Assembly (NCBI GenBank): GCA_038247415.1
Contig: JBBRUX010000002.1
Coordinates: 1 to 64,000, forward strand
Direction: 5' to 3'
DNA length: 64,000 nt
From: Chitinivibrionales bacterium
GTDB lineage: Bacteria; Fibrobacterota; Chitinivibrionia; Chitinivibrionales; WJKA01
Shown in pieces: positions 39,001 through 45,000 of the stretch. Position numbers: made by a program. Positions within the stretch are counted from its first letter, which is position 1, and every line of letters starts with the position of its first letter.

Positions 39001-42000
39001 ACCGTACATAAGAGGAAGATACGGCAAAAATTCCGATGATCCTTCTGTTGATCGATGCGAGAAGAAAGCAGAAAAGCCACCCTTGGCAATATTTTCGAGC
39101 GCAGCTTCTAACGAAGCAACGCCAATTGCTTTGCAATCTGCAACGACCTTAGCAAGATCACCACGAGCATCCAAAAATGATTTGACAACCTTAGCATCTG
39201 CAACACCAAGGGTAATTTCGGAAGCTAAACGAGTTTCGGTAAACGTTCCTGCCTGGTTAAGCTTAATAAGAACGGCATTTCCTGCACGATCCTTACGATC
39301 TTTACCGCACAAAAATGGAATAACATAGCGCATTTGAGTAACTGCTAAATCGTCGAGAACAATTTGAACGCGATCACCAAAACGAGCATTCATAAGCTTA
39401 TGTGCTTCTACGTCATTTTCGGAACCAGGATCTTCCATGGTAACGAAATTTGGTGCACTATTAACAACTTTTCCATCAAAATCGATAAGTTCTTCGCGGC
39501 TTTTTTCGCCAAGACCAGAAAAGCGCATATTGTAACGACCAGCTTTAATGAGCTCTTCGCCTTTTTGAACTTCGGAAAATGCATTATCGGTTCCGATTGC
39601 GTAATCTGTTTCTTTAAGTCCAAGCTGCTGTGCACATTCTTTAATGCGGTTAAGACCTTCGAAATTATCTTTAACAGGGAAAACAAATCCACGTTCTTTG
39701 GCTGTTCCTGTTGGTAAACCATCGCGTACCAGGTTCTTTTCGAACTGGCGGAAAAACTTTGTACCTGTGGTAAAAACACCCTTCACCGATTTTTCGTTCA
39801 TAGCAAAGAAAAACATTTCCTGAATATCTTGTTTTGTTCCAGGAACATGTTCGCCACCACATACCATATTAAACGCAATATTTGGCATGTTGAATGTTTT
39901 TTGACCCTTAGCAGCAAAAATTTCCCATGCTTTGTATCCCGACGCCTTAAGCAAGGTCTGAAAAAATACTGTTGAGGAAGCAAGAGTTGCATTGCCACCC
40001 CAGATTTTCTTATTAGGACCGGCACCCTTAACCATTGCAAGGTCAAATGCTTCACATGCACGAAGAATATCGGCAGGTGATTTAATTACAACCTTTTTTG
40101 GAAGAAGCGGGATAATGTTTTTTTCTATTGACTTAATGGCTTTATCGTTATCGATATAGATTGCTTCGTTTTCGCCATCGGAGGTTCCCTTTGCAATACC
40201 GTTGCGTTCTTCGATAGTATAGCTGTCTTTTCCTGCGTCAACGCGAGCGCTCATGACACCTTCGAGTGTGAAATTTGCATAGGACGAAAGAATTTCACGT
40301 CCTTTTAAGGTAAACTTGGAAACAACTACCTCTTTAGCCATGAGAACCTCCATTGTGTGTTATAAAAAGAAACCTTGAATTATAGCCAGTTTCAAAAAAT
40401 ACATTCCGTACGGCACCATTAAAAAAAGGGACTCCACTGCGGAGCCCCTCGTTATAGTATCTAATCAGAATCGAATACATGCAAACGTTACCATTCGAGG
40501 GTTATTGCCGCCGAGGTTAATCCTGCGCCTACCGTGCAAAAAACAATTTTATCGTTACGGTGCAGAAACTTTTCTATTTCTGCAAGTGCGATAGGAATTG
40601 ACGCACAGGAAGTATTTCCTACATGATCGATATTAAGGAAAAAGCGTTCGAAAGGAACACCGGACTTTTGAGCCGCAGCCTTTAAAATTCGAGCATTTGC
40701 CTGATGCGGTACAACCCAGCGAACTTCGTCTGGTAGCCACCCACTTTGAGCTATTACATCGGCAACAAGCTTTGCAAAACCGCCTGTGGCATGGCGAAAA
40801 AGTGCTTTGCCATCTAAACGAACATATGGATCTGCGGCGGTGCTATTAGCTGGAATTTCGTATCCAGGGTATTCCCGTCTGGCAAGACGCAATCCCGAAG
40901 AATCGGCAAAGAGCATCTCTTTTTTAATACGGTGTCCCTCGCTTGTGCGGGCCAGAACCGTTGCGCCTGCGCCATCACCAAAGAGGAAATAGGTATCTTT
41001 GTCTTTTTTATCGAGTAACCGTGACTGCATATCAACACCAACGCACAAAATGTTATCGGCTATACCCGCAACGAGCATTCCCTTCGCCATAGTCAATGCA
41101 TACAGCCAACCCGAACAAGCAGCGTTCAAATCGAAGCACGGCACACTTGTTATACCAAGCATCCCCTGCAAAATACATGCAGTTGACGGCATAGAAAAAT
41201 CGGGCGTATCGGTAGCAAGTACAATAGCTCCAATGTCCGAAGGCTTTAGTCCAGATTTGGCAATAGCCTCAACTGCTGCATGATATGCGAGTGTTGATGG
41301 TTTTTCGTCAATGTCTGCCCAGCGACGTTCTTTGATGCCTGTTACGCCAAAGATATACTCTTCGGTAATATCGGGAAATTCTTTGAGAAGATCGGCATTC
41401 GTTACAACTCGTTTTGGCAAATACGAACCAATGCCAAGTAAACTAACTTCGGTATTAAAACCCAATGAGGCAGCAGCTGGTTTTGGTTGCGCTTTTGGCG
41501 CTACGGGCTCTTGCGGAGCTGCTTCTGGTTGAGTAGCTTTTGGAGCTGTTGCCAAAAATGCTGCGTCGCTCGTTTGAATTTCGATAACGGGCGTTTCAAA
41601 GGAAACCGTGGCACTTGCAGCTTCAAGAATGCGAACAACAACACCTGCAGCCGGAGCTTCAAATTGAAATGTTGATTTTGCGCTTTCTGCTTCTGCTAAA
41701 ACCGCACCCTTTACAAAGGTATCTCCCGGTTTAACGTTCCACGAAATAATTGTGGCTTCTGTTTCAGCTGCTGCTTGCGCTGGCAGTGATAGTGTTGTCG
41801 TAATCATGTGACTCACCGTAATTCTCCCATCATGGAGGTAATAGCTTCGCGAATAGTATCGATATTAGGCAAATATTGTTTTTCGAGTTCAGGTGCAAAA
41901 GGAACTGGAATATCGGGGGCGCCAATGAGACGTGGCGCTGTTTTAAGTGAAGAAAATGCCTCTTCAACAATTTTTGCAGAGAGCGTTGCCCCAATTCCCG

Positions 42001-45000
42001 CAGTTACCCCAGCTTCTTGAACAATTAAAAGGCGTCCTGTTTTGCGAACCGATGCAATGAGGGGTTCCAAATCAAAAGGATTTAAAATAAATGGGTTCCA
42101 GATATCCATCGAATATTTTAGCGTTGATGCCAAAGTTTGTACATGTTTAAGCATTGCGCCAAAACCAATAATGGTGATATCCGACCCCGTCGAGTACGAT
42201 CGAGATTTAAAAACATTTGAAACATCGCCATCAAAGGAGATATCACCCGTGCTTGAGCCATACAGCAATTTATGCTCGAACACCAAGCATGGGTTTGGAT
42301 CGTAAAATCCTGCCACAAGCGCTTCGAACGTTTCTTGTGGTGTAAATGGATACAAAAGTTTAAGACCAGGAAAACGAGACCAGAGCCCATCAAATTCTGC
42401 CGAATGAAAAGCACCAAGCGTTACGCCCCCACCACAGGGGAACCGGTATAATATTTGAGCTCCTTGATGGGCTCTAAAAAACCAGGTTCCCGCATTGAGA
42501 CCAATTTGTGTAACGGCCTCAGTTCCAAAATCGGCAAATTGAAATTCTATAATAGGCTTGGCACCACATTGCGATGCCCCAAGCGCAAAACCGGCAATTC
42601 CCGCTTCGGCAATGGGCATATCCATAACGCGATGTTCACCAAATTTCTCGAATAATCCCTTGCATGTTTTAAAAGCAGACCCATACGGCCCAATGTCTTC
42701 GCCAAGCAAGAGTGCCGACGGTTCGTTTGAGAGGATATATGAAAGTGCCTGAGTAACAGCGGTATTATTTTTAGCTTTTGTTTCGGCAAATGGCTTAAGC
42801 TTTGGTATTTCTGACGAGGCAAACACTTTAATTGACGACAGTGGAAAGGTTGGTCGTCCTAATTGAGTTGCCCGACCACACGCTTCGGTTACAAGATCAC
42901 GTGCAGAAGCTTCGAGAGCATCGATATCGGCAGCACTCATTGACAATTCGGTTTCGAGCACACTACGCGCCCGTGCAATTGGTTCACGCGTCATCCAAAT
43001 GGTTCGTTCGGCTTCGGTTACATATTCGGCATTATCGTATACTGCATGACCTGCAAGTCGAAGCGTTTGAGATTCGAGAATATAAGGTTTGGATGTTTCC
43101 TTCATGATGTCAAGAGCATCGCACACCGACAAATACACGGCCCATGGGTCACATCCGTCAACCGTTTTGCCCAAAATGCCATACCCTAGTGCCCTATCGG
43201 ATAAATTGGCACAATTATACTGGTATCGTGTTGGGGTTGAATAGGCATAATGGTTGTTTTCGATAAGAAAAAGAACGGGAATGTTGCGCACCGAAGCAAT
43301 ATTAACGGACTCGTGAAAATCCCCCGTTGATGTTCCACCATCACCAATAACGGCGCAACCATATACCTCTTCGTTTGCTTGACGAGCGGCATATACGCCA
43401 CCAACAACCAAGGCCAACATATCACCTAAATGGCTTATCATAGGAAAGCGGCGCATGGGCACATTTCCATGATGCACATTGCCTTCTCGCGCATGAGTTA
43501 TTGAACCCTCATTCGCCAAATACTGACAAAAGAGCGCAAAGAGATCGGCGCCTTGCATAACATGCGCACACAAATCGCGATGCAAAAAAGAGAGAACATC
43601 TTTACCAGGGCGAAACGGCAACCCCAGACCAATATTTGTTGCCTCGTTGCCCATACAGGGAATAACTGTACCGCGCGCTTTTCCCTGTCGATACAGCATA
43701 ATAGCTGCATCATCAAATGCACGTGACAAAAGCATATAATGATACGCTAAAGGATAAAACGCTTCGCGAGACATCCGATGAGGATACCGAATAAGCGTAT
43801 CTGGAGGATATAATCTCGATAATTCCGAAATAAGAGACCCCTTTACCAATAAAGTGCTTATTTGTTGAATGCGAAAATTGCGCAGCACTCAAGATCTGAT
43901 GCTTCCCCGTGGAACCGCATAAGCACAGGCTTTGAAAATAAGTCATTGCGATCGCTACGGAAAGGATGATTTAGGTTAAAAATGTGTTAGGAATCTAAAA
44001 CAGAGTAAGAATTTGGAAGAAGGGCTCTCTTTGGATTATTTTTAATTTCCTTTAAAGTGCCGATATTCTAATCTATATGTATTGGTCGAATGCCTCTCAA
44101 AAGAGCGTATCACCAAAAATATCGGAATTATCTTAATTGTGAGGAGGATAGCCTGCTACAGCTCTTACTTGGCCCAACACTTATCACCAAAGCTCTTTTT
44201 ATCGTTGCGGTTGGTTTAACCGGCGCATTGTTTGTTTTTTCTGCCTTTACCGTGCTCTATCACCGATTTATCTACACGAGATCTGTTGTCCGCCGCTATA
44301 AAGGTCCGTATACACCTCGTTGCACCATTGTATTGCCCTGCAAAGGAATACCAAAAAATCTCGATCGCAATCTTAATGCATTTCTTTCGCAAGATTATCC
44401 CAATTACGAATTCATTTTTACGGTTGAAAATGAAAATGATCCTGCATACGCAATCATAAAAGCTGCCATCGCCAATAAACCTCAGGCTAAGATCGTCGTG
44501 GCTGGTTTAGCAACAACGTGTTGCCAAAAAAACAAGAATATGCTCGCAGCACTCGAAATCGCTACGAATCCAGAAGTGTACGTTTTTGCCGACGCCGACA
44601 TAGGACCAACAGCATCATGGCTTAAAGACCTTGTACTGCCCCTTTCAGATCCTAAAACAACCATTGCCACCGGGTTTCGATGGCTTATGCCAGAAAAAGG
44701 AACGCTTGCCGAACTCGTTCACTTTTATATGAATGCATTTTTATATATACTGTATAGCCCAACCTCATACATGGGACAAGTACATGCCTGGGGTGGATCT
44801 ATGGCTATTCGTAAAGCCGATTTCGAACGATGTGGTATTGCCAAGCGTTGGGCAGAAACCGCCGTCGATGATAGCAGCATGTGTGAAGAAGTGCTCAAAC
44901 ACAAAGGCACTTCGGTGCTTGTTCCCCTTTGTATCACGCAGACAAATGATCTCATTCAAACCGTTGGTGGCGCCATAACATGGTTTGAGCGTCAAATGAT

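What a model noticed while it worked through the whole genome (the two positions that open the first line are those of the whole stretch)
40488..43774. Lipoyl-domain::FabH (KASIII) fusion next to a fused E1 alpha-beta 2-oxoacid dehydrogenase: a CoA-independent primer rout [...]
g00162 (C2:40488-41816, minus) is a 442-aa protein with an N-terminal lipoyl domain (aa 8-80, invariant E-S-A-K lipoyl-lysine motif), an Ala/Pro-rich swinging-arm linker and a complete KASIII/FabH domain (Cys234-His371-Asn401). Its start overlaps by 4 nt the stop of g00163, a single-chain E1 alpha+beta 2-oxoacid dehydrogenase; no E2 core or E3 is in the operon. I propose that E1 loads the acyl group of a 2-oxoacid on the lipoyl arm and the fused FabH takes it directly as primer for condensation with malonyl-ACP, bypassing E2 and acyl-CoA. 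The genome keeps an ordinary FabH (g00448) in the fab operon.
Evidence so far: Call 24: Biotin_lipoyl 8-80, ACP_syn_III 228-305, ACP_syn_III_C 356-442; E1_dh+Transket_pyr+Transketolase_C on g00163. Call 26: the best 120 homologues (56-64% id, 430-453 aa) all carry PF00364 plus PF08545/PF08541 and are named only 'KASIII'. Call 31: full-length fusion in 59 of 296 Fibrobacterota genomes incl. this one: 57 of 80 others of the order, 1 outside it, 0 of 151 in the largest other family. Call 32: fused E1 gene directly upstream in 11 of 11 relatives' loci. Call 125: in 5 of 5 genomes of the order without the fusion (94-98% complete) the fused E1 has no match either (E<=1e-20). Call 35 (120 homologues): lipoyl Lys47 and E-S-A-K 120/120; Cys/His/Asn 120/120; the positions of E. 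[...]
(Added by a program. Inside this text positions count along the whole contig: contig position 1 is position 1 of the stretch shown here. "Call 12" and the like, gene names such as g00115 and contig names such as C1 are that model's own, and its searches are not shown. The text may have been shortened before it was handed on; [...] marks where a part breaks off. The agent that wrote the report below was given it as the finding of a first reader that could run no searches.)

Follow-up and report, generated by a model that had tools for sequence, protein, structure and literature searches.

The report
Lipoyl-arm ketosynthase fed by E1
A two-gene operon pairs a thiamine-dependent 2-oxoacid decarboxylase (E1) with a fatty-acid-starting ketosynthase that carries its own lipoyl swinging arm, which suggests that fatty acid synthesis can be primed straight from 2-oxoacids without coenzyme A; related forms occur in several bacterial phyla and none has been studied at the bench.

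Summary
Window 40488-41816(-) encodes a lipoyl domain, a disordered Ala/Pro linker and a full FabH/KASIII. Window 41813-43774(-) encodes a single-chain E1 alpha-beta. The two genes overlap by 4 nt.

New results:
- The pairing is not confined to one Fibrobacterota order. E1-lipoyl-KASIII single chains of about 1100 aa occur in Planctomycetota, early-branching cyanobacteria and a spirochaete.
- Lipoyl-PSBD-KASIII occurs throughout Opitutaceae, with an orphan fused E1 elsewhere in the genome.
- In the window's order, 18 of 58 fusion-bearing genomes have no E2 core, and the E1 orthologue tracks the fusion.
- All three forms keep Cys-His-Asn and the ACP-docking Arg. All lose the CoA-adenine contacts: Trp32 is kept in 3 of 296 lipoyl-linked sequences against 107 of 109 ordinary FabHs.
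- Chitinispirillum alkaliphilum, which carries the fusion, has anteiso-C15:0 as its dominant fatty acid.

Best reading (about 0.65): E1 reductively acylates the lipoyl-lysine, KASIII takes that acyl as primer and condenses it with malonyl-ACP, and free E3 re-oxidises the arm. The substrate is probably branched 2-oxoacids, but this is unproven. There is no biochemistry and no expression data. I found no paper describing the system.

The parts
41813..43774 (-). Single-chain E1 alpha-beta, a ThDP-dependent 2-oxoacid dehydrogenase component of 653 aa. The open frame runs on to a GTG at 43888.
   Evidence: Pfam E1_dh, Transket_pyr and Transketolase_C. The closest solved chains are BCKDH alpha and PDH beta. 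The orthologue lies next to the fusion in 28 of 29 loci.
43253..43345 (-). ThDP-binding motif GDG-X26-NN (E1 residues 144-174).
   Evidence: Found by regex on the translation. G144, D145 and N174 are kept in 56 of 56 single-chain relatives and G146 in 53 of 56; position 173 is Asp in 47 and Asn in 5.
43046..43048 (-). E1 His243, aligned to His291 of the human BCKDH alpha chain.
   Evidence: Alignment to 1dtw_A; His in 56 of 56 single-chain relatives. Its role in reductive acylation is recalled, not checked.
42404..42406 (-). E1 His457, aligned to His128 of the Geobacillus PDH E1 beta chain.
   Evidence: Alignment to 1w85_B and 3duf_B; His in 56 of 56.
41813..41816 (-). GTGA: the fusion's start codon overlaps the E1 stop codon, which suggests translational coupling.
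   Evidence: Sequence.
41577..41795 (-). Lipoyl domain (fusion residues 8-80).
   Evidence: Pfam PF00364. NCBIfam partial hits go only to lipoyl-bearing E2/E1 models. The AF2 model gives a beta-barrel at residues 5-82 with pLDDT mostly 82-97.
41676..41678 (-). Lys47, the predicted lipoyl-lysine, in the motif E-S-A-K.
   Evidence: K47, E44 and S45 are invariant in 58 rows. ESAK is found in 120 of 120. Lys47 lies between strands 39-44 and 49-53 of the model.
41451..41567 (-). Ala/Pro/Gln-rich flexible linker (residues 84-122). No peripheral subunit-binding domain.
   Evidence: Sequence. pLDDT is below 50 for residues 92-113. No PF02817 hit.
40491..41450 (-). KASIII/FabH domain (residues 123-442).
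   Evidence: NF006829 and TIGR00747 over their cut-offs. Best solved relatives are 2ebd_A and 1ub7_A at E about 1e-64.
41115..41117 (-). Cys234, the acyl-accepting cysteine (E. coli FabH Cys112).
   Evidence: Alignment with E. coli FabH; kept in 120 of 120.
40704..40706 (-). His371 (E. coli FabH His244).
   Evidence: kept in 120 of 120.
40614..40616 (-). Asn401 (E. coli FabH Asn274).
   Evidence: kept in 120 of 120.
40426..40450 (-). Terminator-like hairpin (11 pairs) followed by a T-run, 38 nt after the fusion's stop codon; it closes the two-gene unit.
   Evidence: The number of such sites in the region is not above chance, so this rests on position only.

Best explanation
This is a minimal, E2-less '2-oxoacid dehydrogenase-ketosynthase' system. 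The proposed steps are:
1. The fused E1 alpha-beta decarboxylates a 2-oxoacid on ThDP and reductively acylates the lipoyl-lysine (Lys47) of the neighbouring protein.
2. The roughly 40-residue flexible linker lets the S-acyl-dihydrolipoyl arm enter the tunnel of its own KASIII domain, or that of the dimer partner. That tunnel normally takes the pantetheine arm of acyl-CoA.
3. The acyl group moves to Cys234.
4. The arm leaves, malonyl-ACP docks at the conserved Arg376, and the His371/Asn401 pair drives decarboxylative condensation to a 3-ketoacyl-ACP, which enters ordinary FAS II.
5. The dihydrolipoyl arm is re-oxidised by a free dihydrolipoyl dehydrogenase (E3), as for the glycine-cleavage H protein.

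The housekeeping FabH in the fab operon keeps using acetyl-CoA. The fusion most likely supplies a different primer: branched C4/C5 acyl groups from branched-chain 2-oxoacids (my odds about 0.5), pyruvate/acetyl (about 0.25), or 2-oxobutyrate and others (about 0.25).

Shown here: the domain make-up, the conservation patterns, the gene linkage and fusion, and the phyletic patterns. Inferred: lipoylation, every chemical step, the substrate, and the E3 step.
For: 1. Anatomy. A lipoyl domain, a linker and a full FabH lie behind a complete E1, with a 4-nt overlap.

2. Rosetta-stone fusions. 56 of the 62 hits to the lipoyl-KASIII half of P0182 are single chains of more than 1000 aa carrying E1_dh, Transket_pyr/Transketolase_C, lipoyl and KASIII domains. 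They are named from Anthocerotibacter panamensis (on a 4.19-Mb contig), Tautonia sociabilis and T. marina, Pirellulales MAGs and Oceanispirochaeta.

3. An E2-like form. The 120 best Opitutaceae hits all carry lipoyl plus KASIII domains, and 114 by my count also carry the E3_binding/PSBD domain. Each of 5 of 5 complete Opitutaceae genomes also has a fused E1 alpha-beta 40-42% identical to the window's E1. In the two loci I annotated (L128, L132) it has no E2 or E3 beside it.

4. No alternative partner. 18 of 58 fusion-bearing genomes of the order (15 of them at least 90% complete) have no PF00198 E2 core at E<=1e-10.

5. Co-inheritance. The E1 orthologue (51% identity or more) is found in 57 of 58 fusion-bearing genomes and 1 of 23 fusion-less genomes. 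In G040 both genes are degraded side by side. E1 is adjacent in 28 of 29 loci.

6. Active sites.
- Cys/His/Asn are kept in 120 of 120, 120 of 120 and 56 of 56 sequences of the three forms; Arg249 in 120, 120 and 53 of 56.
- The residues that hold the CoA adenine in E. coli FabH are Thr28 and Trp32/Arg151; Arg36 contacts the pantetheine part (passages of PMC4606726). Trp32 is kept in 0 of 120, 0 of 120 and 3 of 56.
- By contrast Trp32 is kept in 107 of 109, Arg151 in 99 of 109 and Thr28 in 94 of 109 stand-alone FabH representatives, and in this genome's own FabH.

7. The E1 is equipped for lipoyl acylation. It has the ThDP motif and both catalytic His residues, which are also kept in 56 of 56 single-chain forms.

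8. Support functions are in the genome: lipA, two LplA/LipB-type genes, gcvH and two lpd genes. lpd scores over its cut-off in 12 of the 15 E2-less, fusion-bearing genomes that are at least 90% complete.

9. Phenotype hint. Chitinispirillum alkaliphilum, source of homologue P0006, is an obligate anaerobe that makes acetyl-CoA by two PORs and PFL. Its dominant PLFA is anteiso-C15:0, with iso-C16:0 also present (passages of PMC4814513). Opitutaceae isolates are rich in iso and anteiso acids (passages of PMC5303756). The position of E. coli Phe87 holds smaller residues in all three forms: Met, Val, Thr/Ser.
Against: - There is no biochemistry and no expression data.
- In the window's clade the Trp32 position is Tyr, which could still stack on adenine. 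Arg151 is kept in 50 of 120, and Arg36 is kept in 43 of 56 single-chain forms. Residual CoA use is therefore not excluded.
- This genome has a complete E2-E3-E1 set on contig C45 and a sucAB-lpd set on C54. Acyl-CoA primers could be made here in the ordinary way.
- E3 was not found at E<=1e-80 in 2 of the 15 E2-less genomes (G074, 92% complete; G030, 100% complete), and G027 has only a weak hit. No E3-binding domain exists in the window protein.
- The lipoyl motif is E-S-A-K, not the usual D-K.
- The substrate is undetermined. The alpha part is closest to BCKDH chains (1um9_A, 2.8e-32) and the beta part to PDH chains (3duf_B, 1.1e-52). All PDH equivalog scores lie below their cut-offs.
- As far as I recall (not checked), Planctomycetes and Gloeobacter-like cyanobacteria are not known for branched fatty acids, so the branched-primer idea may not hold for the single-chain forms.
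- The fatty-acid link rests on one fusion-bearing isolate plus a family-level pattern in Opitutaceae. I could not test whether Chitinivibrio alkaliphilus, which has straight-chain fatty acids, lacks the fusion.
Confidence: 0.65

Rival explanations
1. The KASIII domain works only as a stand-in for the E2 catalytic domain. It passes the acyl group from the lipoyl arm through Cys234 to CoA or to holo-ACP and does not condense, so the system just makes acyl-CoA or acyl-ACP.
For: The first half-reaction of FabH is a reversible thioester exchange (established enzymology, recalled). The domain sits exactly where the E2 core sits in the lipoyl-PSBD-KASIII form. The QncN/L/M and SclQ systems pass a lipoyl-bound unit to an ACP (passages of PMC6335953).
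Against: His244 and Asn274, which are needed only for malonyl decarboxylation and condensation, are invariant in 296 of 296 lipoyl-linked sequences. The ACP-docking Arg249 is kept in 293 of 296. The CoA-adenine contacts are lost, which argues against CoA as acceptor. The domain passes the FabH family cut-offs.
Confidence: 0.1
2. The fusion is an ordinary acyl-CoA-using FabH. Its lipoyl(-PSBD) part merely tethers it to E1/E3 or to a 2-oxoacid dehydrogenase complex, for channelling of acyl-CoA or for regulation by redox state.
For: This genome has canonical E2 cores. Tyr at the Trp32 position and Arg151 in 50 of 120 sequences could keep some CoA affinity. The PSBD in Opitutaceae is a docking module.
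Against: 18 of 58 fusion-bearing genomes have no E2 core to make acyl-CoA from the E1 product. The lipoyl Lys is invariant. Trp32 is lost in 293 of 296 lipoyl-linked sequences but kept in 107 of 109 ordinary FabHs. The single-chain forms carry no E2 core domain in their precomputed Pfam lists.
Confidence: 0.1
3. The mechanism is as in the best explanation, but the product feeds a specialised lipid or a polyketide-like metabolite rather than bulk membrane fatty acids. Examples would be lipid-A or ornithine-lipid hydroxy acids, or an extender other than malonyl-ACP.
For: A housekeeping FabH always coexists with the fusion where I checked: this genome and 5 of 5 Opitutaceae genomes. In Opitutaceae the fusion follows kdsA, and the orphan E1 lies beside a HAD hydrolase and an LptA-like gene. 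The window operon faces a glycosyltransferase and lies near an LPG_synthase_TM gene.
Against: No dedicated ACP, reductase or thioesterase lies beside the operon. The ACP-docking residues match FAS II FabH. The domain is closest to true FabHs, not to KASIII-like polyketide enzymes.
Confidence: 0.1
4. The N-terminal domain is biotinylated or unmodified, and the adjacency to E1 has no mechanistic meaning.
For: PF00364 covers both biotinyl and lipoyl domains. The motif lacks the usual Asp before Lys.
Against: The genome's two biotinyl proteins carry E-A-M-K-M/L, whereas the fusion has E-S-A-K-S and sister forms have E-S-D-K and E-A-D-K. phmmer links the domain to the genome's E2 (3.1e-06) and not to its biotinyl proteins. 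NCBIfam partial hits go only to lipoyl-bearing models. There are also the fusion to E1 and the PSBD next to the domain.
Confidence: 0.03

Closest known systems
FabH / KASIII, the initiating ketosynthase of type II fatty acid synthesis (E. coli FabH; solved 1HND, 1HNH)
   Same: Passes the FabH family models. 45-50% identity to the Aquifex and Thermus FabH over the domain, by eye from the alignments. Cys-His-Asn triad, ACP-docking Arg249 and Asn247 kept.
   Different: Carries an N-terminal lipoyl domain and linker. Lacks the Thr28/Trp32/(Arg151) adenine cradle that 94 to 107 of 109 ordinary FabHs keep. Always paired or fused with an E1. Has a low-confidence insert of about 12-24 residues at 311-334.
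E2 (dihydrolipoyl acyltransferase) of PDH/BCKDH/OGDH complexes
   Same: An N-terminal lipoyl domain with Lys at a hairpin tip and an Ala/Pro-rich swinging-arm linker. In Opitutaceae there is also a PSBD in the E2 position. The partner is an E1 of the alpha-beta type.
   Different: The CoA-dependent catalytic core (PF00198) is replaced by a ketosynthase. The window protein has no PSBD. The expected quaternary structure is a FabH-like dimer, not a 24- or 60-mer (inference).
BCKDH complex plus branched-chain-specific FabH of Bacillus, Staphylococcus and Listeria (branched fatty-acid priming through acyl-CoA)
   Same: The same overall logic, if the substrate is branched: 2-oxoacid -> ThDP -> lipoyl -> primer for FabH. 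It coexists with FAS II, and carriers make iso and anteiso acids.
   Different: The known route releases free acyl-CoA through E2. Here the E2 step and CoA would be skipped, and 18 of 58 carriers have no E2 at all.
QncN/QncL/QncM and SclQ1-4 (a ThDP/transketolase-like E1, a lipoyl domain, an E2-type acyltransferase and a dedicated ACP that load a C2 unit onto an NRPS line)
   Same: An E1-like enzyme loads a lipoyl arm, and the unit is passed on to a carrier-protein pathway instead of to CoA. The pyrimidine-binding, transketolase-C, lipoyl and transferase domains are fused in one chain (passages of PMC6335953).
   Different: Those systems keep an E2-type acyltransferase domain and a dedicated ACP and do no condensation. 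Here a Claisen-condensing KASIII takes the place of the transferase.

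Membership tests
FabH / KASIII (TIGR00747, NF006829) | Scores over the curated family cut-offs. 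| tested here: met
   NF006829 318.5 bits (cut-off 249); TIGR00747 296.3 bits (cut-off 292.1); residues 123-442.
FabH / KASIII (TIGR00747, NF006829) | Cys-His-Asn catalytic triad. | tested here: met
   Cys234/His371/Asn401 align to E. coli Cys112/His244/Asn274; kept in 120 of 120 and in all three architectures.
FabH / KASIII (TIGR00747, NF006829) | ACP-docking Arg249 and basic patch. | tested here: met
   Arg376 kept in 120 of 120; the Lys214 position is Arg or Lys in 120 of 120; the Lys257 position is Lys or Arg in 120 of 120. The role of Arg249 is recalled from the literature.
FabH / KASIII (TIGR00747, NF006829) | Acyl-CoA primer site: adenine held by Thr28 and stacked between Trp32 and Arg151, with Arg36 contacting the pantetheine part. 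| tested here: not met
   In the window protein these positions are Ile150, Tyr154, Val158 and Lys273. Across the clade Trp32 is kept in 0 of 120 and Arg36 in 0 of 120. Ordinary FabHs keep Trp32 in 107 of 109. Residue roles come from PMC4606726.
FabH / KASIII (TIGR00747, NF006829) | Condenses an acyl primer with malonyl-ACP. | not testable with these tools
   Needs an enzyme assay.
2-oxoacid dehydrogenase E2 (dihydrolipoyl acyltransferase) | Lipoyl domain with the modifiable Lys at a beta-hairpin tip. | tested here: met
   PF00364 at residues 8-80. Lys47 invariant. It lies between strands 39-44 and 49-53 in the AF2 model. Lipoylation itself is not shown.
2-oxoacid dehydrogenase E2 (dihydrolipoyl acyltransferase) | Peripheral subunit (E1/E3)-binding domain. 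| tested here: not met
   No PF02817 hit in the window protein. Present in the Opitutaceae form.
2-oxoacid dehydrogenase E2 (dihydrolipoyl acyltransferase) | Catalytic acyltransferase core (PF00198). | tested here: not met
   Absent from the fusion. The genome's two true E2s carry it.
E1 alpha-beta, ThDP-dependent 2-oxoacid dehydrogenase component | E1_dh, Transket_pyr and Transketolase_C domains, the ThDP motif and the two catalytic His residues. | tested here: met
   GDG-X26-NN at 144-174, His243 and His457.
Pyruvate dehydrogenase E1 (NCBIfam equivalogs TIGR03181/TIGR03182, NF008854) | Scores over the equivalog cut-off, which would assign the substrate class. | tested here: not met
   194.7 against 411, 163.9 against 394, and 201.1 against 454. 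The closest solved alpha chains are BCKDH and the closest beta chains are PDH.
Biotinyl carrier domain | (A/V)-M-K-(M/L) biotinylation motif. | tested here: not met
   The fusion has E-S-A-K-S. The genome's own biotinyl proteins have E-A-M-K-M and E-A-M-K-L.
QncN/L/M-type lipoyl-to-ACP loading cassette | E2-type acyltransferase domain and a dedicated ACP gene beside the E1-like genes. | tested here: not met
   Neither is found in the operon or its flanks. The cassette's make-up is taken from PMC6335953.

The most novel reading that the evidence does not exclude
A previously unrecognised class of multienzyme machine: a 2-oxoacid dehydrogenase-type system in which a Claisen-condensing ketosynthase replaces the E2 acyltransferase core. 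The lipoyl swinging arm, not coenzyme A, would then deliver the primer that starts fatty acid synthesis.

It exists in three interchangeable architectures: split E1 plus lipoyl-KASIII; lipoyl-PSBD-KASIII with an orphan E1; and one-chain E1-lipoyl-KASIII. It is present in at least five phyla: Fibrobacterota, Verrucomicrobiota, Planctomycetota, Cyanobacteriota and Spirochaetota. It may be the main source of iso and anteiso primers in anaerobes that have no BCKDH complex.
Probability: 0.55. Interest if true: 0.88.

Novelty: new variant of a known kind. Interest (0 to 1): 0.8.

Why it matters
- If it is right, it adds a route for starting bacterial fatty acid synthesis beside the known ones (FabH with acyl-CoA, malonyl-ACP decarboxylase, and FabB or FabY). 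It would be the first case of a lipoyl arm feeding a ketosynthase.
- It would explain how strict anaerobes without a BCKDH E2 core can make anteiso and iso fatty acids.
- It would correct the annotation of many proteins now labelled only 'KASIII', 'thiamine pyrophosphate-dependent enzyme', 'transketolase' or '2-oxoisovalerate dehydrogenase E1'.
- It offers a compact two-gene (or one-gene) module for making branched or odd-chain fatty acids from amino-acid precursors without drawing on the CoA pool.
- The hypothesis can be tested directly with two recombinant proteins.

Tried and rejected
- Complex prediction of the KASIII dimer with the lipoyl domain gave 'no answer' (score 0.00, controls not run). 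This is no evidence either way.
- The look-up of sequencing runs listed no RNA holder, only sediment-metagenome DNA runs. Expression is untested and read laying was not used.
- The search for related loci on genome contigs with the whole fusion returned only lipoyl domains of unrelated E2s.
- The scan of 251 Planctomycetota genomes for FabH, followed by 5 genomes whose only FabH-family hit scored low, did not show the single-chain form as the sole FabH. Those hits were divergent frames of 215-719 aa. The question is left open.
- lipA is present in 76 of 81 genomes of the order, including genomes with neither fusion nor E2, so it does not discriminate.
- The KASIII-domain tree (87 rows, quick IQ-TREE, LG+G4) joins the Fibrobacterota and Opitutaceae forms (SH-aLRT 98) and sets the single-chain forms apart (98). 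It cannot say whether all lipoyl-linked KASIIIs share one origin.
- The promoter scan found nothing above chance (7 sites against 7.1 expected).
- Substrate assignment from NCBIfam and PDB similarity is ambiguous.
- Searches of the held library for lipoyl + KASIII, 'lipoyl domain' + FabH, lipoyl + 'ketoacyl-ACP synthase III', that term with 'branched-chain' and 'fusion', and FabH + lipoamide + primer found no description of this architecture. The library lacks most subscription journals, so prior description is not excluded.
- The supplementary fatty-acid table of PMC4814513 was not opened.

Full report
**What is in the window**

Two minus-strand genes form a compact unit. ORF 41813-43888 most likely starts at the ATG at 43774. 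It gives a 653-aa protein with E1_dh (14-306), Transket_pyr (336-506) and Transketolase_C (528-641), which is an alpha and a beta E1 subunit in one chain.

Its TGA stop overlaps the GTG start of ORF 40488-41816 as GTGA, with GGGAG 8 nt upstream. That 442-aa protein has a Biotin_lipoyl domain (8-80), an Ala/Pro/Gln-rich stretch, and a complete KASIII that passes the curated FabH cut-offs (NF006829 318.5 bits against 249; TIGR00747 296.3 against 292.1). Its best solved relatives are FabHs at E about 1e-64.

An AlphaFold2 model built on a 58-row alignment gives mean pLDDT 85:
- a beta-barrel at residues 5-82, with Lys47 between strands 39-44 and 49-53;
- a disordered stretch at 92-113 (pLDDT below 50);
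- a confident KASIII fold;
- a low-confidence insert at about 311-334.

A hairpin with a T-run follows the stop at 40426-40450. The flanking genes are unrelated: a divergent GT2 glycosyltransferase upstream, and an enolase-like gene and EPSP synthase downstream.

**The rest of the genome**

The assembly has 99 contigs and is 96% complete. It holds five PF00364 domains over the cut-off:
- two biotinyl proteins with E-A-M-K-M/L;
- two ordinary E2s with E-T-D-K-A;
- the fusion with E-S-A-K-S.

One E2 sits in an E2-E3-E1(alpha-beta, 822 aa) operon on contig C45. The other sits in sucA-sucB-lpd beside SDH, sucCD and citrate synthase on C54. So canonical complexes and two E3 genes exist here, which the finding did not mention.

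The window's E1 is only a distant paralogue of the C45 E1 (phmmer 1.1e-37). lipA, two LplA/LipB-type genes and gcvH are present. One of the LplA/LipB-type genes lies 3.3 kb beyond the window's end on the same contig. The only other KASIII in the genome is a 323-aa FabH inside yceD-plsX-fabH-fabD-fabG-acpP-fabF.

**Distribution in the window's phylum**

- All 120 best homologues carry the lipoyl plus KASIII domains. The 119 other than the window's own protein are 57-64% identical. They are named only as KASIII, from Chitinispirillum alkaliphilum and from Chitinivibrionales and Chitinispirillales MAGs.
- 59 of 296 Fibrobacterota genomes have the fusion: the window's own genome, 57 of 80 others of the order, 1 outside it, and 0 of 151 in the largest other family.
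- E1 lies directly upstream in 28 of 29 relatives' loci; the 29th ends at a contig edge.
- Searching the order with the E1 itself, orthologues (51% identity or more) occur in 57 of 58 fusion-bearing genomes. Some are cut by contig ends.
- In the 58th genome, G040, both the E1 (23 in-frame stops) and the fusion (a 216-aa remnant) lie degraded side by side.
- Among the 23 fusion-less genomes only G068 (79% complete) has the orthologue, and G072 has only a paralogue 29% identical.

**No E2 to work with**

PF00198 (the E2 core) was found in 44 of 81 genomes of the order. Among the 58 fusion-bearing genomes, 18 have none at E<=1e-10, and 15 of those are at least 90% complete. In those organisms the E1 has no acyltransferase partner other than the lipoyl-KASIII protein.

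- lpd over its cut-off is present in 12 of those 15. G027 has a weak hit; G074 and G030 have none at E<=1e-80.
- lipA is nearly universal (76 of 81) and so uninformative.

**The same parts joined differently in other phyla (new)**

A profile-free search of 1.84 billion representatives collapsed the Fibrobacterota clade to one representative. It also exposed longer relatives.

1. P0182 (1124 aa, RefSeq WP_218080544.1, Anthocerotibacter panamensis, on a 4.19-Mb contig) carries E1_dh, Transket_pyr, Transketolase_C, lipoyl and KASIII in one chain.
   - A search with its lipoyl-KASIII half among proteins of 618-1967 aa gave 62 hits at E<=1e-20.
   - 56 of them are longer than 1000 aa and have this full make-up.
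   - They are named from Tautonia sociabilis, T. marina, Pirellulales, Pirellulaceae and Planctomycetaceae MAGs and Oceanispirochaeta. A partial one comes from Candidatus Cyanaurora vandensis.
2. P0131 and P0125 carry lipoyl, E3_binding (PSBD) and KASIII.
   - The 120 best relatives of P0131 are 65-82% identical and come from Opitutaceae: Nibricoccus, Opitutus, Rariglobus and strain EW11.
   - All carry lipoyl plus KASIII, and 114 by my count also list PF02817.
   - 20 of 401 sampled Verrucomicrobiota genomes match at E<=1e-80.
   - No E1 lies within 1.5 kb in 0 of 14 loci. In the two loci I annotated (L114, L116) the context is pyrG-kdsA-fusion with rsmE opposite.
   - Yet 5 of 5 complete Opitutaceae genomes hold a fused E1 alpha-beta 40-42% identical to the window's E1. 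That is far closer than their own separate E1 alpha and E1 beta genes (25-33%). In the two loci annotated (L128, L132) it has no E2 or E3 beside it.
   - The same 5 of 5 genomes also keep an ordinary FabH-size gene.

In a KASIII-domain tree the Fibrobacterota and Opitutaceae forms are one clade (SH-aLRT 98). The one-chain forms are one side of another well-supported branch. A single origin of all three is neither shown nor excluded.

**Active-site pattern**

I aligned the sequences to E. coli FabH, taken from NC_000913.3. In the counts below, the three figures refer to the three forms in this order: Fibrobacterota (n=120), Opitutaceae (n=120), one-chain (n=56).

Kept:
- Cys112, His244 and Asn274 in 120, 120 and 56.
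- Arg249 in 120, 120 and 53.
- Asn247 in 120, 120 and 53.

Passages of PMC4606726 state that in the E. coli FabH-CoA structures the adenine hydrogen-bonds to Thr28 and stacks between Trp32 and Arg151. Arg36, Asn209 and Asn246 (that paper's numbering) hold the pantetheine part.

Lost in the lipoyl-linked enzymes:
- Trp32 is replaced by Tyr (120), Glu (120), or Asp/Glu/Gly (52 of 56; Trp in only 3).
- Thr28 is replaced by Ile/Val, Arg/Met, or Arg/Met/Trp.
- Arg151 is mixed (Arg 50, Lys 34, Met 33), His (112), or Phe/Pro (46).
- Arg36 is replaced by Val (120) or Leu (120), but Arg remains in 43 of 56 one-chain forms.

As a control, 109 stand-alone FabH-size representatives keep Trp32 in 107, Arg151 in 99, Arg36 in 95 and Thr28 in 94. 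This genome's own FabH keeps all four.

So the parts needed for condensation and for ACP are under selection. The parts that recognise the nucleotide of CoA are not.

The position of Phe87 holds Met, Val/Ile or Thr/Ser. As I recall, Phe87 limits the primer pocket in E. coli FabH. Clade-specific changes also occur, such as Gln at the Leu142 position in 119 of 120 and Ala at Leu189 in 120 of 120.

**The E1 is a working E1 by sequence**

- It has GDG-X26-NN at residues 144-174.
- His243 aligns to His291 of the human BCKDH alpha chain.
- His457 aligns to His128 of the Geobacillus E1 beta chain.
- Both His residues are kept in 56 of 56 one-chain forms.
- That these histidines act in reductive acylation of the lipoyl group is recalled from the literature, not checked here.

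The substrate class cannot be read off:
- The alpha part is nearest BCKDH chains (1um9_A 2.8e-32; 1dtw_A 2.9e-28; PDH 1w85_A 7e-26).
- The beta part is nearest PDH chains (3duf_B 1.1e-52; BCKDH 1dtw_B 3.8e-43).
- All PDH equivalog scores are far below their cut-offs.

**Lipoyl, not biotinyl**

- The motif is E-S-A-K in 120 of 120 Fibrobacterota sequences.
- It is E-S-D-K in at least 112 of 120 Opitutaceae sequences.
- It is E-A-D-K, E-A-T-K or similar in the one-chain forms.
- The domain finds the genome's E2 but not its biotinyl proteins.
- NCBIfam partial hits go to SucB, AcoC, PDH E2 and a lipoyl-bearing E1 beta model.

**Phenotype hints**

Passages of PMC4814513 describe Chitinispirillum alkaliphilum, the named source of homologue P0006:
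- It is an obligate anaerobe that makes acetyl-CoA by two pyruvate:ferredoxin oxidoreductases and pyruvate-formate lyase.
- Its PLFA are dominated by anteiso-C15:0 and C16:0, with C14:0 and iso-C16:0.
- The same table lists 16:0 and 16:1w7 for Chitinivibrio alkaliphilus, and 13:0, 13:1 and 15:0 for Fibrobacter succinogenes.

An acetyl primer from pyruvate would be redundant in such a cell, whereas a 2-methylbutyryl or isobutyryl primer would not. Lacunisphaera species (Opitutaceae) have iso-C15:0, anteiso-C15:0, iso-C14:0 and iso-C16:0 as major acids (passages of PMC5303756).

The limits of this evidence:
- I could not test whether Chitinivibrio alkaliphilus or Lacunisphaera carry or lack the genes, because the genomes searched are unnamed.
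- I recall that Planctomycetes and Gloeobacter relatives are not noted for branched acids.
- I therefore put the branched-substrate idea at only about even odds.

**Mechanism proposed**

1. E1 decarboxylates a 2-oxoacid and reductively acylates lipoyl-Lys47.
2. The tethered arm carries the acyl thioester into the KASIII tunnel and hands it to Cys234.
3. The arm withdraws and malonyl-ACP docks at Arg376.
4. His371 and Asn401 drive condensation to 3-ketoacyl-ACP.
5. E3 re-oxidises the arm. In Opitutaceae E3 would be recruited through the PSBD; in the window's form it would act by free encounter, as with the H protein.

All of these steps are inferred. What is shown is the architecture, the three-way gene fusion and linkage, the absence of E2 in many carriers, co-inheritance and co-decay, and the selective loss of the CoA-nucleotide site.

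**Comparison with what is known**

- The system works like a BCKDH (or PDH) complex wired directly into FabH.
- By sequence it is a member of the FabH family, but it fails the acyl-CoA-site feature.
- It resembles an E2 only in its arm.
- The nearest mechanistic precedent I could document is the QncN/QncL/QncM and SclQ cassette. There an E1-like enzyme loads a lipoyl domain, and an E2-type acyltransferase passes the unit to an ACP (passages of PMC6335953). Here a condensing enzyme replaces that transferase.
- Five searches of the held library found no description of a lipoyl-KASIII protein. The library lacks most subscription journals.

**Verdict**

Confidence in the core mechanism is about 0.65. 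I file it as a new variant of known kinds (2-oxoacid dehydrogenase systems and FabH initiation), with a fair chance of being a distinct class of multienzyme system. Interest: 0.8.

Noticed in passing
G040:C3:425431-428222 (relative's genome; no locus fetched): Both genes of the operon look degraded together. The E1 match has 23 in-frame stops at 35% identity. The fusion survives only as a 216-aa frame matching residues 169-318. The same genome's E2 match also has 2 TAA stops.
   Followed up: partly
L114 and L116 (fusion loci), L128 and L132 (E1 loci), Opitutaceae: In Opitutaceae the lipoyl-PSBD-KASIII gene follows pyrG and a kdsA-like DAHP_synth_1 gene. The orphan fused E1 lies beside a HAD hydrolase and an LptA/LptD_N-like gene. 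Both are therefore next to LPS/KDO-type genes, which may hint at a link to lipid-A or hydroxy fatty acids.
   Followed up: no
G000:C2:67298-69236 (L135 3298-5236), 3.3 kb beyond the window's end: An LplA/LipB-type lipoyl-protein ligase gene (259 aa) overlaps the start of a 412-aa radical-SAM gene, on the same contig as the operon.
   Followed up: partly
window 40818-40889 (fusion residues 310-333): A low-confidence insert in the KASIII domain (pLDDT about 51-55, below 50 at 329-334). Part of it (12 residues) is absent from the Aquifex FabH in the pairwise alignment. Its position relative to the tunnel entrance was not examined.
   Followed up: no
window 41025-41027 (fusion Gln264, the position of E. 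coli Leu142): A polar Gln in the primer pocket is kept in 119 of 120 Fibrobacterota fusions. The Opitutaceae and one-chain forms have Leu or Met there, and among 109 ordinary FabHs the six commonest residues at this position are all hydrophobic or aromatic. Unexplained.
   Followed up: no
G525:C92, G408:C2, G591:C59, G489:C1 (Verrucomicrobiota): Four matches to the lipoyl-PSBD-KASIII protein contain one in-frame TGA. Several matches start only at residues 130-206. Frameshift, assembly error or recoding was not examined.
   Followed up: no
G297:C35:5553-6461 (Planctomycetota MAG): A KASIII match lies inside a 1336-aa open frame. This may be a one-chain E1-lipoyl-KASIII. The genome also has an ordinary FabH-size frame of 345 aa. 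Not inspected.
   Followed up: no
window 38821-40353 (-): A 510-aa protein directly downstream matches only Enolase_C over residues 155-380. It is long, and it lacks an N-terminal enolase domain hit.
   Followed up: no
G000:C45:10612-15867 (L008): The genome's canonical complex is ordered E2-E3-E1, and its E1 is also an alpha-beta fusion (822 aa) with an N-terminal extension of about 165 residues before the E1_dh match.
   Followed up: no
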